The position numbers were made by a program, and so were the translations under genes. The notes under the pieces were generated by a model. It made no database searches, was not told the origin of the DNA, and saw only the letters and a program-made list of their open reading frames with translations. Shown here piece by piece: positions 3,359 to 49,839 of a stretch of DNA of 53,091 nt. The DNA is from Candidatus Bathyarchaeia archaeon (lineage in GTDB: Archaea; Thermoproteota; Bathyarchaeia; Bathyarchaeales; DTEX01): contig JAWAXL010000003.1 in NCBI GenBank assembly GCA_038820405.1, positions 1-53,091 of the forward strand. Reading direction: 5' to 3'. The stretch's first letter is position 1, and the number at the start of each line of letters is the position of its first letter.

Positions 3359-3446
3359 TGGTGCGGGGAGCGGGATTTGAACCCGCGAACCCCTACGGGA
3401 CAGGCTCCTGAAGCCTGCGCCTTTGACCTGGCTTGGCTATCCCCGC
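3359..3446 (-). tRNA. tRNA-Leu(CAG), intronless, CCA encoded
   Basis: Reverse complement GCGGGGATAGCCAAGCCAGGTCAAAGGCGCAGGC-TTCAGGA-GCCTG...GGTTCAAATCCCGCTCCCCGCACCA; long variable arm. Confidence 0.97.
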
Positions 3447-40081: not shown

Positions 40082-40414
40082 GGACGGTGGGTCTCAGGCG
40101 GGGGGCTAGGGGTCCCCTGAGAGGCCACAAGCCTTGACCGCAAACCCCCTATATGGCGGGCCGAAAGCTGGGGTAAGGCGTGTAAGGCCACAGACTCGGC
40201 CATCCCAAAACGATGAATATCTGTCCTCTGGGGCTAGCGGTCGCGGAGCATCCCTTGTAGGAGGGGTGTAACCGCGTTTGCCGGGCGAACCTGGCCAGGC
40301 CCGGGAGGGAGCAACCTAAGACCGGGCGCCTAGTGCTCAGGGGGTACGGATATGAGTGGAGGGCTGGTTTGGGTCTGTGGATTCTGCACGTCGAGCCCCG
40401 GTGACCCACTGTCC
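40082..40414 (+). ncRNA. ffs: Archaeal SRP (7S) RNA
   Basis: Ends GGACGGTGGGTC/GACCCACTGTCC pair; helix 6 CATCCCTT-GTAG-GAGGGGTG; helix 8 GCCAGGCCC-GGGA-GGGAGCAACC. Confidence 0.95.
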
Positions 40415-47324: not shown

Positions 47325-47714
47325 ATGGAGTTCACTCTAATCACCGGCAGATCAATCGATCAGGGGAAATATAAAGAGCATGCTAAACTCACCGAGAAAT
47401 ATAAGGCAAGCGTAGCTCTCTGTGAGATGCACGTTGAGGATATGAGAAAGCTAGGTATAAGAGATGGGGATAACGTTAAGATTATAACGGATTTTGGATT
47501 CGTTGTTGTTACAGCAAAGAGGTCTAAGAGAATAAGGACTCCTGGAATAGTTTTCATACCATTTGGCCCGTGGGTTAACTCAATATTACCATCTGAAACT
47601 GAGGGAACTGGAATGCCACATCTTAAGGGGTTTAAGGTTAAAATTGAGCCAACAAATGAGCCAGTTCCAGATATAAAGAAATTACTATTAAAAACGTATG
47701 GAATTAAGAAATAG
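47325..47714 (+). CDS. fwdD: Formylmethanofuran dehydrogenase subunit D
   Basis: LITGRSIDQG, FIPFGPWVN, GTGMPHLKG. Confidence 0.92.
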   Translation: MEFTLITGRSIDQGKYKEHAKLTEKYKASVALCEMHVEDMRKLGIRDGDNVKIITDFGFVVVTAKRSKRIRTPGIVFIPFGPWVNSILPSETEGTGMPHLKGFKVKIEPTNEPVPDIKKLLLKTYGIKK

Positions 47715-47724
47715 GGGTGAGTTA

Positions 47725-49161
47725 ATGCCTGTAGTTTCGGGGGTTTTATGTCCGTTTTGTGGGTGCTGCTGTGATGACCTTGAGATAATAGTTGAGGATA
47801 ATAAGGTTATCGACGTCAGGAATGCATGCGCCTTAGGCGCCTCAAAATTTATGGAGTATTCCTCACATAGGAACACTAAACCCCTCATAAGGAAGAATAG
47901 CGAGCTAGTAGAGACAATACTTAATGAGGCTATAAAGCGGTGCGCAGAGGTCCTAGCAGAAGCATCCTATCCACTCCTATATGGATGGAGTAACACCAGC
48001 TGTGAAGCAATAAAGGTTGGCTTAGAGCTCGCAGAGGAAGTTGGCGGCGTCATAGATAATACAACAACTACCTGCCATGGACCATCTATTCTAGCGATCC
48101 AGGAGGTTGGCATACCCGGATGCACACTTGGGCAGATAAGGCATAGGGCTGACCTAATCATATATTGGGGCAGCAACCCATGGAGCGCCCACCCACGCCA
48201 CATAGAACGCTACACGGCGCTATCTGAGGGGAGATTCCAGCGGGCTGCATGGAAGCGCTATCTATCGCGTTTAATCCTTGAATCCGCTAGGAAGAGGCGC
48301 TATAGGGTAGCTGGGAGAGTCCTGAAAGGAGGTGCTATAACATTACCCTCCGAGGAAGAAAAAGAATGGATGTTGCCCCCACCGGGGGAAAGAAAGCTGG
48401 TCGTCGTAGACGTTCAGAAGACTAGGACGGCAGACCTAGCCGACATATTCATTAAGGTTGAGCCTGGGGGGGACTACGACGTCCTACAAGCTCTTAGGGC
48501 TCTTATACGCGATGAGGAGCTCGATGTGGATAGCGTCGCAGGAGTTCCAATTGAGAGGCTTGAGGAGCTTGCTGACATCATGGTTAACTGTAGGTTTGGC
48601 ATACTTTTCTTCGGACTCGGTTTAACAATGAGTACTGGAAAATCTAGGAATATTGAGGCTGCCATAAAGTTGACTAGGGATTTAAACAGATACACAAAAT
48701 TCCTCATCATGCCCATGAGGGGCCACTTCAACGTGACTGGGGCAAACATTGTCTCCACCTGGCAGACTGGATATCCATATGCCGTAGACTTCTCGCATGG
48801 GTATCCAAGGTATAATCCGGGTGAGACTTCGGCCATAGATATCTTGTCAAGGGGAGATGCTGATGCAATGCTCGTCGTCGCCTCCGACCCGGCTTCAAGC
48901 TTTCCAAAAAAGGCTGTTGAACACCTTGCTAAGATACCGCTTGTGGTTATTGATCCATGCATGACGCCTACAGCGCTTATGGCTGATGTAGTTATTCCAT
49001 CGGCATTTGTTGGGATAGAAGCTGAGGGGACAACATACCGTATGGATCATGTTCCGCTCCCATTAAAAAGGATTGTTGAGCCGCCTGAAGGTATCCTCCC
49101 AGACGAGATAATACTCTGTAGGATTCTTCATGAGGTAAGAGAGATCAAGGGAAAAGCGTAG
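47725..49161 (+). CDS. fwdB: Formylmethanofuran dehydrogenase subunit B (Cys type)
   Basis: CPFCGCCCDD, CHGP, MRGHFNVTG, PRYNPGE, YRMD. Confidence 0.95.
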   Translation: MPVVSGVLCPFCGCCCDDLEIIVEDNKVIDVRNACALGASKFMEYSSHRNTKPLIRKNSELVETILNEAIKRCAEVLAEASYPLLYGWSNTSCEAIKVGLELAEEVGGVIDNTTTTCHGPSILAIQEVGIPGCTLGQIRHRADLIIYWGSNPWSAHPRHIERYTALSEGRFQRAAWKRYLSRLILESARKRRYRVAGRVLKGGAITLPSEEEKEWMLPPPGERKLVVVDVQKTRTADLADIFIKVEPGGDYDVLQALRALIRDEELDVDSVAGVPIERLEELADIMVNCRFGILFFGLGLTMSTGKSRNIEAAIKLTRDLNRYTKFLIMPMRGHFNVTGANIVSTWQTGYPYAVDFSHGYPRYNPGETSAIDILSRGDADAMLVVASDPASSFPKKAVEHLAKIPLVVIDPCMTPTALMADVVIPSAFVGIEAEGTTYRMDHVPLPLKRIVEPPEGILPDEIILCRILHEVREIKGKA

Positions 49162-49196
49162 GCCAAAAAGATTCTCCTTCTAAAAAGGAGAAACCT

Positions 49197-49204
49197 TTTT
49201 AAAT
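49197..49204 (+). promoter_or_regulatory. TATA box candidate for the queT leader
   Basis: TTTTAAAT preceded by purine-rich GGAGAAA; would put the TSS near 49226, the first base of the structured RNA. Confidence 0.5.
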
Positions 49205-49225
49205 TTCTTTATATAGCCTATATAC

Positions 49226-49330
49226 TGGCTAGGCGGGTTGAGCTCCGCCTCCACCCAAGATGTGGCAAGCCTTCAGATGATAAGGCAGCCAAAATGGGAA
49301 ATCAACCAGCCTCCGCAGAATGTGGAGGTG
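49226..49330 (+). ncRNA. Structured 5' leader, candidate riboswitch
   Basis: Four-way junction P1-P4, SD-sequestering hairpin and alternative 10/11-bp helix (see findings). Confidence 0.65.
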
Positions 49331-49335
49331 TAATA

Positions 49336-49839
49336 ATGAAGTTCACATCAAAGGATATATCGTTGATTATAGCTTTTGCAACACTCTATATTATAGCGGT
49401 TATCGTGTTAGCACCAGTAAGTTTCTATGTGTGGCAGATTAGGGTTGCTGATGCAATGCTCCCCCTCTCGATGATCTTTGGTATGCCATGTACCTTGGGT
49501 TTAAGCTTAGGCTGCATTGTGGGAAACATATATGGCGGCTTGGGTCTAATAGACATTATCGGAGGCTCAATAGCAAACTTCCTAGCCTGCCTCGCGGCAT
49601 ACCAACTAGGAAAGAAAAATGGTATAATTATGAGGTTTATTGGCTCCCTCGCCGAGACGGTAATTGTCACAGCTATTGTAGGCATGTACCTCTCATATTT
49701 ACTCAATATACCACTAGAACTAAGTTTACTAGGGATTTTTGTAGGCTCACTCATTTCCATAAACTTAATAGGGTTCACCCTTGAAGAAATAATAAGGAAA
49801 ATCCACATTCCAAGTAATAAGAAATGCTCCACAATATGA
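49336..49839 (+). CDS. queT: QueT-family (ECF S-component-like) transporter; start at ATG 49336 after SD GGAGGTG
   Basis: FATLY...LAPVSFYVWQIRVADAMLPL, GLSLGCIVGN, GLIDIIGGS. Confidence 0.85.
   Translation: MKFTSKDISLIIAFATLYIIAVIVLAPVSFYVWQIRVADAMLPLSMIFGMPCTLGLSLGCIVGNIYGGLGLIDIIGGSIANFLACLAAYQLGKKNGIIMRFIGSLAETVIVTAIVGMYLSYLLNIPLELSLLGIFVGSLISINLIGFTLEEIIRKIHIPSNKKCSTI

What the first reader, a model, noticed from the sequence alone, without database searches (positions are those of the whole stretch)
49226..49338. Candidate new archaeal riboswitch upstream of queT: four-way junction with a switchable SD hairpin
Seen in sequence: a GC-rich island in AT-rich DNA that starts about 22 nt after a TATA box. 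P1 is TGGCT(49226-30)/AGCCA(49287-91). It encloses P2 AGGCGGG/TCCGCCT (loop TTGAGC), P3 CCAC/GTGG (loop CCAAGAT) and P4 GCCTT/AAGGC. A further hairpin, CCTCCGCA-GAA-TGTGGAGG (49310-28), buries most of the SD GGAGGTG 5 nt before the ATG. AGGCGGGTTGA (49231-41) can instead pair 10/11 with TCAACCAGCCT (49302-12), which excludes P2 and invades the SD hairpin. CGCCTCCAC (49246-54) is a second anti-SD, and CCCA (49254-57) could pair with TGGG (49295-98). Established: bacterial queT genes are often controlled by preQ1 riboswitches, archaea use preQ0 for archaeosine, and few archaeal riboswitches are known. Inference: a translational switch sensing a 7-deazaguanine or another QueT substrate. By eye it does not match preQ1-I/II/III, TPP, FMN or SAM consensus.
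Basis: partly seen in the sequence, partly recalled or inferred. Interest (0 to 1): 0.9.

Follow-up and report, generated by a model that had tools for sequence, protein, structure and literature searches.

The report
New archaeal queT leader riboswitch candidate
A conserved folded RNA in front of an archaeal transporter gene for a tRNA-modification precursor looks like a previously undescribed riboswitch, one of two related forms found in many archaea.

Summary
Window 49231-49329 is a conserved 5' leader ("class A") directly before queT. In 13 related leaders, 98.9% of cells pair and 14 of 28 pairs show compensatory change. The supported helices are P1, a long-range CCCA/UGGG helix, a P3-P4 hairpin and a hairpin that holds the Shine-Dalgarno (SD) sequence. 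The proposed switch helix shows no covariation. Class A also precedes a non-homologous preQ0 transporter (Vut_1/YhhQ), once with queC behind it. A shorter relative, "class B", occurs in 96 of 151 sampled genomes of the same class. It precedes queT, queC or queE-like genes and pairs its SD with the aptamer in a covarying pseudoknot. No Rfam family matches either class. Ten literature searches found no description. The window's genome has tRNA-guanine transglycosylase, but I found no queC, queD or queE. My best reading is a new 7-deazaguanine (probably preQ0) riboswitch acting on translation. Ligand binding, the transcription start and the switching step are untested.

The parts
49172..49192 (+). 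Terminator-like hairpin followed by a T-run, after the upstream gene's stop at 49161. It separates that gene from the queT unit. Context, not part of the leader.
   Evidence: 8-pair stem, then ACCTTTTTAA; ORF end
49198..49203 (+). TATA-like hexamer TTTAAA, 33 nt before the first P1 base. It is the inferred promoter and would place the transcript start at about 49225-49229.
   Evidence: In 119 class B upstream regions, TATA-like hexamers pile up at -35 to -31 from P1, and the window's hexamer sits at -33. The TATA-to-start distance is recalled general knowledge. The start itself is not mapped.
49231..49250 (+). P1 hairpin: AGGCGGG (49231-37), loop TTGAGC (49238-43), TCCGCCT (49244-50).
   Evidence: 7 pairs, 100% paired in 13 of 13 sequences. 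The closing pair is AU in 5, CG in 4, GC in 3 and UA in 1. The loop letters GAG are invariant.
49254..49257 (+). P2 5' strand, CCCA. It pairs with TGGG 49295-98 and encloses P3-P4.
   Evidence: pair 35-74 is CG in 8, AU in 2 and UA in 1; pair 33-76 is CG in 12 and UA in 1; the helix is 96.2% paired
49258..49262 (+). Junction AGATG. The ATG is invariant in all 13 sequences and the junction is unpaired in the model.
49263..49291 (+). P3-P4 hairpin: TGGC (49263-66) with GCCA (49288-91), GCCTT (49269-73) with AAGGC (49282-86), and loop CAGATGAT (49274-81) with a conserved ATGA core.
   Evidence: 9 pairs, 6 with compensatory change, 98.3% paired. In genus g85 the whole stem is replaced by a different complementary sequence while the loop core is kept.
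49295..49298 (+). P2 3' strand, TGGG.
49299..49308 (+). Tail AAATCAACC plus one variable base. The nine letters are identical in 13 of 13 sequences and no pairing partner could be established.
49309..49329 (+). P5, the SD-sequestering hairpin: GCCTCCGC (49309-16), loop AGAAT (49317-21), GTGGAGGT (49322-29). The SD GGAGGTG is at 49324-30.
   Evidence: 8 pairs, 5 with compensatory change, 100% paired. Folded alone it gives -9.4 to -17.3 kcal/mol at 37 C.
49336..49839 (+). queT coding sequence (167 aa), with its start codon 5 nt after the SD.
   Evidence: The homologous start is shared by relatives. The in-frame ATG at 49294 falls in a stretch where most relatives read AAGGGG.

Best explanation
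Window 49231-49329 is the 5' leader of the queT mRNA. It belongs to a conserved archaeal family of structured leaders, here called class A. It consists of a P1 hairpin with a conserved loop, a long hairpin domain (P2-P3-P4), an invariant AAAUCAACC tail, and a hairpin (P5) that buries the Shine-Dalgarno sequence.

I read it as a riboswitch that binds a 7-deazaguanine, most likely preQ0, the precursor of archaeosine. When the cell has enough precursor, it lowers translation of the salvage transporter by keeping the SD paired.

A shorter, far more common relative (class B) shares the P1 hairpin motifs. Its SD pairs directly with an internal segment of the aptamer to form a pseudoknot. That pairing excludes a local hairpin (P2), because the two share two C residues. 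This is the anatomy of a two-state switch.

Shown: conservation, covariation of the helices, SD sequestration, and gene association.
Inferred: the ligand, the OFF logic, the transcript start, and which helix exchanges in class A.
For: 1. Conservation beyond the protein. The nine leaders aligned (the window, five same-genus relatives and three metagenome sequences) have 82% mean column identity. The QueT proteins of the five same-genus relatives are 62-73% identical to the window's.
2. Covariation. In class A, 13 sequences are 98.9% paired and 14 of 28 pairs have compensatory changes. The score is 0.478 against 0.175 +/- 0.020 for shuffles (0 of 500 reach it), and slid controls give at most 0.106.
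3. Specificity. Model R1 hits once per genome, always before the transporter gene, in 6 of 23 genomes of the genus.
4. Gene context. Class A precedes QueT in genus g1, in three further metagenome sequences (L044, L054, L047) and in genus g164 of another class. In genus g85 it precedes Vut_1/YhhQ (PF02592, 157 bits), with QueC (PF06508, 112 bits) downstream in L261. Of 111 class B loci, 104 precede QueT, 1 precedes QueC (TIGR00364, 195 bits, above its cut-off), 2 precede QueE-like radical SAM genes, 1 precedes an unknown membrane protein, and 3 end at a contig edge.
5. Class B structure. The SD/anti-SD helix has compensatory change at 7 of 7 pairs, including complete sequence swaps. The competing P2 also covaries.
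6. Physiology. The window's genome (94.5% complete) has TGT at 268 bits. It gives only 22-bit partial QueC hits, no PTPS/QueD hit, and only an 18-bit generic radical SAM match to a QueE-like query. It therefore probably depends on salvage.
7. Position. TATA-like boxes lie at a fixed -35 to -31 from P1, which puts the structure at the 5' end of the mRNA.
Against: - There is no ligand-binding, expression or transcript-start data. The one metatranscriptome run gave 0 reads on the stretch, which is no test.
- For class A the exchange helix is not identified. P5 is stable alone (-9.4 to -17.3 kcal/mol at 37 C). It also stays intact in 11 of 12 modelled alternatives and is shortened in the twelfth (L047).
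- The candidate loop-tail pseudoknot has no covariation, and 6 cells in 5 of the 13 sequences are mismatched.
- The 13 class A sequences come from a few lineages (g1, g85, g164 and metagenomes) and are related. The alignments were fitted to the model, which favours it.
- Homology between classes A and B rests on short shared motifs only. The class B model does not hit the window's genome (best E 0.275).
- The two QueE-like proteins score below NCBIfam's equivalog cut-offs.
Confidence: 0.7

Rival explanations
1. It is a riboswitch, but the ligand is not a 7-deazaguanine. It could be guanine or another purine, or some other substrate of these transporters.
For: QueT and Vut_1 substrates have not been tested in archaea. 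One class B locus precedes an uncharacterised membrane protein (L088).
Against: The regulated set includes QueC and QueE-like biosynthesis genes as well as two unrelated transporter families linked to queuosine precursors (PMC5372724 passages). Taken together they point to one pathway.
Confidence: 0.1
2. It is a leader recognised by a protein or by a tRNA, for example one that senses tRNA lacking archaeosine, rather than by a small molecule.
For: Nothing in the sequence data excludes a macromolecular partner. Class A has several invariant unpaired blocks (the AUG junction, the AUGA loop core, AAAUCAACC) with no assigned role.
Against: The same leader occurs on four unrelated gene families and under many archaeal taxon labels, which is the usual signature of direct metabolite sensing. 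No conserved neighbouring regulator gene was noticed, but I did not search for one systematically.
Confidence: 0.1
3. It is a constitutive structured leader or RNA thermometer. The SD hairpin would simply set a low or temperature-dependent level of translation in a hot-spring organism.
For: P5 is stable by itself. DNA runs that hold the stretch are labelled hot springs metagenome.
Against: A thermometer needs only the SD hairpin. Here about 80 nt upstream are conserved, with covarying helices and invariant loops. Class B keeps two mutually exclusive covarying helices.
Confidence: 0.05
4. One reading: a four-way junction closed by TGGCT/AGCCA, which switches through the long helix AGGCGGGTTGA/TCAACCAGCCT.
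For: Both pairings exist in the window. The long helix is 83.9% paired across 13 sequences.
Against: Pair 4-68 of the outer helix forms in 1 of 9 relatives, and its 5' strand lies at or before the inferred transcript start. The long helix has no covariation above shuffles: 39 of 500 shuffles reach its score and 362 of 500 reach its count of pairs changed on both sides. Pair 13-87 is unpaired in 9 of 13 sequences. Forcing its inner six pairs costs 0.3 to 10 kcal/mol and leaves the SD hairpin intact in 11 of 12 sequences.
Confidence: 0.05

Closest known systems
preQ1-II riboswitch (Rfam RF01054; queT/COG4708 leaders of Bacillota)
   Same: It lies in the 5' UTR of queT and controls translation. 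Its SD is paired inside a pseudoknot helix of the aptamer, and it has an inserted hairpin (HLout-type pseudoknot) (PMC11625349 section 6). Class B shares the SD-in-pseudoknot design. Class A shares the gene and an inserted hairpin domain.
   Different: The covariance model gives no match in the window region, in 13 relatives' loci or in the whole genome (Lactococcus lactis rings as positive control). The conserved sequences differ. The organisms are archaea, not Bacillota. Class A holds its SD in a separate local hairpin.
preQ1-I riboswitch (Rfam RF00522, types 1-3)
   Same: It has a short G-C-rich P1 followed by an A-rich stretch and then a 3' segment that pairs back into the P1 loop (H-type pseudoknot). 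It also binds preQ0, and it regulates queuosine-precursor synthesis and transport genes (PMC11625349 section 4). Class B has this general topology: P1, an A-rich linker, then SD pairing into the P1 loop.
   Different: No match in 0 of 151 genomes of the class, with Bacillus subtilis ringing as control, or locally. The archaeal elements span about 60 nt (class B) and 100 nt (class A); the Rfam PreQ1 model has 45 positions. In class B the C just before the P1 3' strand pairs within P1: it changes from G-C to C-G in L218. In preQ1-I that C is a free specificity base.
preQ1-III riboswitch (Rfam RF02680)
   Same: It is a queT leader of about 100 nt. Its SD/anti-SD helix lies away from the binding pocket (PMC11625349 section 7), as P5 does in class A.
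   Different: No model match. The whole-genome check had no positive control. The helices and conserved nucleotides are different, and the class is known only from Ruminococcaceae and metagenomes.

Membership tests
preQ1-I (RF00522) | Reaches the Rfam gathering score (39 bits) with the family's covariance model | tested here: not met
   Nothing at gathering in the window. No PreQ1 row at E<=10 in 49100-49450 or in a class B leader. 0 of 151 genomes of the class, with B. subtilis ringing as control.
preQ1-I (RF00522) | H-type pseudoknot in which the P1 loop pairs with the 3' tail after an A-rich L3 (PMC11625349, section 4) | tested here: inconclusive
   Class A: the loop-tail pairing (columns 14-19 with 81-86) never covaries and has A.A or C.A mismatches in 5 of 13 sequences. 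Class B: P1, an A-rich linker and pairing of the loop with the SD are supported.
preQ1-I (RF00522) | An unpaired specificity C, preceded by U or A, directly before the P1 3' strand | tested here: inconclusive
   A UC precedes CGCC in both classes. In one class B sequence (L218) that C and its partner G change together to G and C, which suggests a base pair. This rests on a single sequence.
preQ1-II (RF01054) | Reaches the Rfam gathering score (47 bits) | tested here: not met
   whole genome, with L. lactis ringing as control
preQ1-II (RF01054) | The SD is fully paired in a pseudoknot helix of the aptamer, upstream of queT | tested here: inconclusive
   Met for class B. For the window's class A, the SD lies in a local hairpin that follows the aptamer.
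preQ1-III (RF02680) | Reaches the Rfam gathering score (63 bits) | tested here: not met
   The whole-genome search found nothing but had no positive control.
Riboswitch (general) | A conserved secondary structure supported by compensatory changes | tested here: met
   class A; class B
Riboswitch (general) | Association with several unrelated genes of one metabolic pathway | tested here: met
   QueT, Vut_1/YhhQ, QueC and QueE-like genes
Riboswitch (general) | Direct, selective ligand binding with a structural change | not testable with these tools
   Needs in-line probing, ITC or SHAPE.
Riboswitch (general) | Lies in the transcribed 5' UTR | tested here: inconclusive
   Only inferred from TATA-like boxes at -35 to -31 from P1. 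The RNA run gave 0 reads.
QueT transporter (PF06177), the downstream gene | Pfam gathering score | tested here: met
   85.4 bits against 33.7

The most novel reading that the evidence does not exclude
Classes A and B are two related, previously undescribed riboswitch classes for preQ0, the archaeosine precursor. They would be the first 7-deazapurine riboswitches in Archaea. Record titles of the hits read mostly Bathyarchaeia, and also Methanomethylicota, Promethearchaeota/Hodarchaeota, Nitrososphaerota and Methanocella. Class B carries a built-in two-state switch, P2 against the SD pseudoknot. The leaders can also be used to find new preQ0 transporters.
Probability: 0.6. Interest if true: 0.9.

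Novelty: new variant of a known kind. Interest (0 to 1): 0.85.

Why it matters
Few riboswitch classes are known in archaea (recalled). The three known preQ1 classes are reported from bacterial phyla only (PMC11625349, sections 4, 6 and 7). A widespread archaeal leader that controls both salvage and synthesis of the archaeosine precursor would add a new aptamer fold for 7-deazaguanines. It would show that mostly uncultured archaea regulate translation through RNA that senses metabolites. It would make control of archaeosine precursor supply testable. It would also mark candidate preQ0 transporters in archaea: QueT paralogs, Vut_1, and the unassigned membrane protein in L088. The two architectures offer a natural comparison of how one hairpin motif is wired to two different expression platforms.

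Tried and rejected
- **Rfam.** The gathering scan of the window found only SRP RNA and a tRNA. Permissive scans of 49100-49450, of 13 relatives' loci and of one class B leader gave only weak, unrelated rows.
- **RNA evidence.** No listed holder of the stretch is on record as RNA. The one metatranscriptome run from the same study gave 0 reads from about 3% of the run. This is no test of expression or of the transcript start.
Neither shows covariation. The constrained fold does not free the SD. I also looked by eye for an anti-sequestor: P1 5' strand against P5 5' arm, and the UGUGG junction against P5 5' arm. None was conserved across the P5 sequence types, so I claim none.
- **Class B tail AACCCCGG.** I considered pairing with GCGGGU, with the GUGG strand, or CGG with the CCG bulge. 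These blocks are almost invariant, and they were fixed by my own search pattern, so nothing could be tested. The CCG/CGG pairing is a guess only.
- **False hits.** 18 of 24 metagenome pattern hits and 9 of 120 genome pattern hits lack the rest of the motif. L259 and L260 lie in or beside unrelated ORFs.
- **Tools and papers not available.** McCown et al. 2014 (PMC4145258) is not held. The supplements of the Weinberg 2010 and 2017 motif surveys could not be opened and might list such a motif. Their main texts have no hit for queT or queuosine, and their preQ1 mentions do not concern archaea.
- **Literature.** All 10 searches are used. None describes an archaeal queT or preQ0 riboswitch.

Full report
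**What is in the window.** An ORF runs from the SD-preceded ATG at 49336 to 49839 and encodes a QueT-family protein (PF06177, 85.4 bits against a cut-off of 33.7). The upstream gene is a molybdopterin-oxidoreductase-like ORF that ends at 49161. It is followed by a terminator-like hairpin at 49172-49192 and a T-run. Folding alone is only mildly unusual: MFE -43.3 kcal/mol, z = -2.47, with 5 of 200 shuffles as good. The GC contrast is modest, 0.47 against 0.37-0.41.

**Known families.** Rfam 15 gives nothing at the site. This holds at gathering thresholds and at E<=10 on 351 nt. It also holds at E<=1 on 13 relatives' loci and at E<=10 on a class B leader. The PreQ1 model matches 0 of 151 genomes of the window's class, while Bacillus subtilis rings as control. 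preQ1-II and preQ1-III find nothing in the window's genome. The preQ1-III search had no positive control.

**Relatives, class A.** QueT homologs occur in 51 of 61 related genomes. Of the 30 loci fetched, 6 carry the window's leader (the window and five same-genus genomes). A further 19 carry a shorter conserved leader, class B, directly upstream of the gene.
- A metagenome pattern scan returned 24 stretches. Six are true class A, and three of those duplicate genome loci.
- Covariance models R1 and R3 found class A in 6 of 23 genomes of the genus, once per genome.
- They found nothing outside that genus in a 151-genome sample of the order.
- They found it in genus g85 of another family, with 2 copies in each of 2 genomes.
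- They found it in genus g164 of another class of the phylum.

On the final 13-sequence alignment, 98.9% of 361 cells pair and 14 of 28 pairs carry compensatory changes. The covariation score is 0.478 against 0.175 +/- 0.020 in shuffles (0 of 500 reach it) and at most 0.106 when the partners are slid. The supported helices, in window coordinates, are:
- P1, 49231-37 with 49244-50.
- P2, 49254-57 with 49295-98. The window's CCCA/UGGG is itself a compensated variant of the commoner CCCC/GGGG.
- P3, 49263-66 with 49288-91.
- P4, 49269-73 with 49282-86.
- P5, 49309-16 with 49322-29, which contains the SD.

The invariant unpaired blocks are GAG in the P1 loop, AUG in the P2-P3 junction, AUGA in the P4 loop, and the tail AAAUCAACC.

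The outer P1 (TGGCT/AGCCA) is 66.7% paired, and one of its pairs forms in only 1 of 9 sequences. AGCCR pairs with UGGC instead, so there is no four-way junction. The long alternative helix is 83.9% paired but covaries no better than shuffles. Loop positions 16 and 17 read UU, AU, UA or CC while UCAA never changes. Forcing its inner six pairs costs 0.3 to 10 kcal/mol, leaves P5 intact in 11 of 12 sequences and shortens it in L047.

**Class B.** I judged 111 of them real. Their record titles read mostly Bathyarchaeia or Bathyarchaeota. A few read Methanomethylicota, Promethearchaeota, Hodarchaeota, Nitrososphaerota or Methanocella, and one is a bacterial-labelled MAG. Model R2 finds class B in 96 of 151 sampled genomes of the class and in 55 of 79 genera. 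It finds none in the window's own genome (best E 0.275). In that genome class A takes its place before queT.

The class B structure is a 5-bp P1 whose closing pair is GC, AU, GU, CG or UA, followed by a short P2 (GUGG/CCAC). Together these are 97.8% paired, and 0 of 500 shuffles reach the score. The CCUCC-type segment, which overlaps the P2 3' strand, pairs with the SD outside P1. That helix has compensatory change at 7 of 7 pairs. Some members carry entirely different complementary sequences there, such as ACAUCUC/GAGAUGU, GUCUC/GAGAC and CCGAC/GUCGG. P2 and the SD helix share two C residues, so they cannot form together. Classes A and B share the P1 sequence GGCGGG...UCCGCC and the loop letters GU(U)GAG. 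I infer common descent from that alone.

**Genes controlled and the likely ligand.** Of the 111 class B loci:
- 104 have a QueT homolog within 750 nt downstream.
- 3 end at a contig edge.
- 1 precedes QueC (TIGR00364, 195 bits, above its cut-off).
- 2 precede radical SAM proteins whose five best NCBIfam hits are all QueE, though below the equivalog cut-offs.
- 1 precedes an unassigned membrane protein.

Class A in g85 precedes Vut_1/YhhQ-family transporters (157 bits), in one locus with QueC downstream (112 bits). The E. coli YhhQ is reported to take part in preQ0 transport, and qrtT/queT genes are reported as predicted precursor transporters (PMC5372724, passages).

The window's genome is 94.5% complete. 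It has a tRNA-guanine transglycosylase (268 bits). It gives only 22-bit partial QueC hits, no PTPS/QueD hit, and only an 18-bit generic radical SAM match to a QueE-like query. It probably lives on salvaged precursor. Because archaea insert preQ0 into tRNA (same paper), preQ0 is the most likely ligand. This is an inference.

**Transcript and start codon.** TATA-like hexamers pile up at -35 to -31 from the first P1 base in 119 class B upstream regions. The window has TTTAAA at -33, that is 49198-49203. Taking the usual archaeal spacing (recalled), the mRNA would start a few nucleotides before P1, at about 49225-49229. The in-frame ATG at 49294 is a by-product of the window's UGGG variant of P2, and most relatives read AAGGGG there. 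The homologous start, with the SD 5-6 nt upstream, is 49336. RNA-seq gave no reads.

**Mechanism.**
- Shown: the SD is base-paired in every member of both classes, and in class B by a helix that competes with P2.
- Inferred: ligand binding stabilises the SD-paired state and lowers translation of genes that import or make the ligand. This is the usual logic for such genes and matches preQ1-II (PMC11625349, section 6).
- Open for class A: what opens P5. P5 folds at -9.4 to -17.3 kcal/mol at 37 C. The DNA runs that hold the stretch are labelled hot springs metagenome, so 37 C energies overstate its stability there.

**Comparison and novelty.** In function and gene context the closest known systems are the bacterial preQ1 riboswitches. 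The element is not a member of class I, II or III by their covariance models, and its helices and conserved blocks differ from theirs. The 2024 review of the family lists only bacterial phyla in the three sections I read. It also contains no occurrence of the word 'archaea' according to the search listing. Ten full-text searches found no description. Supplements and subscription-only papers could not be checked. I therefore rate it a new variant (a new aptamer class) of a known kind. Confidence is about 0.9 that it is a functional cis-regulatory RNA and 0.7 that it is a 7-deazaguanine riboswitch acting on translation.

Noticed in passing
L062-L181 (genome contigs) and L007-L029: Class B leader of about 60 nt: P1, P2, an A-rich linker, the AACCCCGG block and an SD pseudoknot. 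It is present in 96 of 151 sampled genomes of the class, and some genomes carry 2-3 copies before different QueT paralogs.
   Followed up: yes
L088:5727-6557 (- strand): A 277-aa membrane protein with no Pfam or NCBIfam match sits behind a class B leader. Its ESM Atlas neighbours (0.92-0.93) include clusters in which 23% of members carry the ECF riboflavin-type S-component family. It is a candidate new precursor transporter, as a lead only.
   Followed up: partly
L026 and L028 (same genus as the window), upstream of QueT paralogs: These leaders keep a CCUCC-type segment, CCGC and an SD, but lack the AACCCCGG tail. The class B model does not match them at E<=1. They may be degenerate, or a third form.
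   Followed up: partly
L264:46-169: A divergent class A relative (28.8 bits). It keeps the AAAUCAACC tail, P5 and QueT, but its 5' half is different and has a larger P1 loop.
   Followed up: partly
L129: A class B leader with QueT lies in a MAG labelled as a bacterium (Krumholzibacteriaceae). This could be mis-binning or gene transfer.
   Followed up: no
many class B loci, e.g. L076, L154, L171: Many QueT genes behind the leader appear to start at TTG or GTG. A few are open only from CTG, ACG or ATA codons at the expected distance from the SD.
   Followed up: no
window 49260-49280: The invariant AUG of the P2-P3 junction is in frame with a UGA in the conserved P4 loop, giving a 6-codon mini-ORF in the window. 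It has no SD and is cut to one codon in L003. It is probably a by-product of two conserved AGAUG motifs.
   Followed up: partly
window 49172-49192: A terminator-like hairpin plus T-run sits between the upstream oxidoreductase-like gene and the queT promoter.
   Followed up: partly
window 40085-40411 (+) and 3362-3446 (-): An archaeal SRP RNA (168 bits) and a tRNA (58.6 bits).
   Followed up: no
window 47325-49161 (+): Two overlapping ORFs carry a molybdopterin dinucleotide-binding domain and a molybdopterin oxidoreductase domain. By recall they resemble formylmethanofuran dehydrogenase subunits D and B.
   Followed up: no
window 49296-49330 in runs X1 and X2: Short contigs match only the tail and P5 part of the leader and then continue with different sequence. 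They probably come from a related organism's leader in the same samples (tables 7 and 8).
   Followed up: no
L257, L258, L261 (genus g85): An extra small hairpin (GGGG...CCCC type) sits just 5' of P1, and the TATA-like box is about 20 nt further upstream than in the other class A loci.
   Followed up: no
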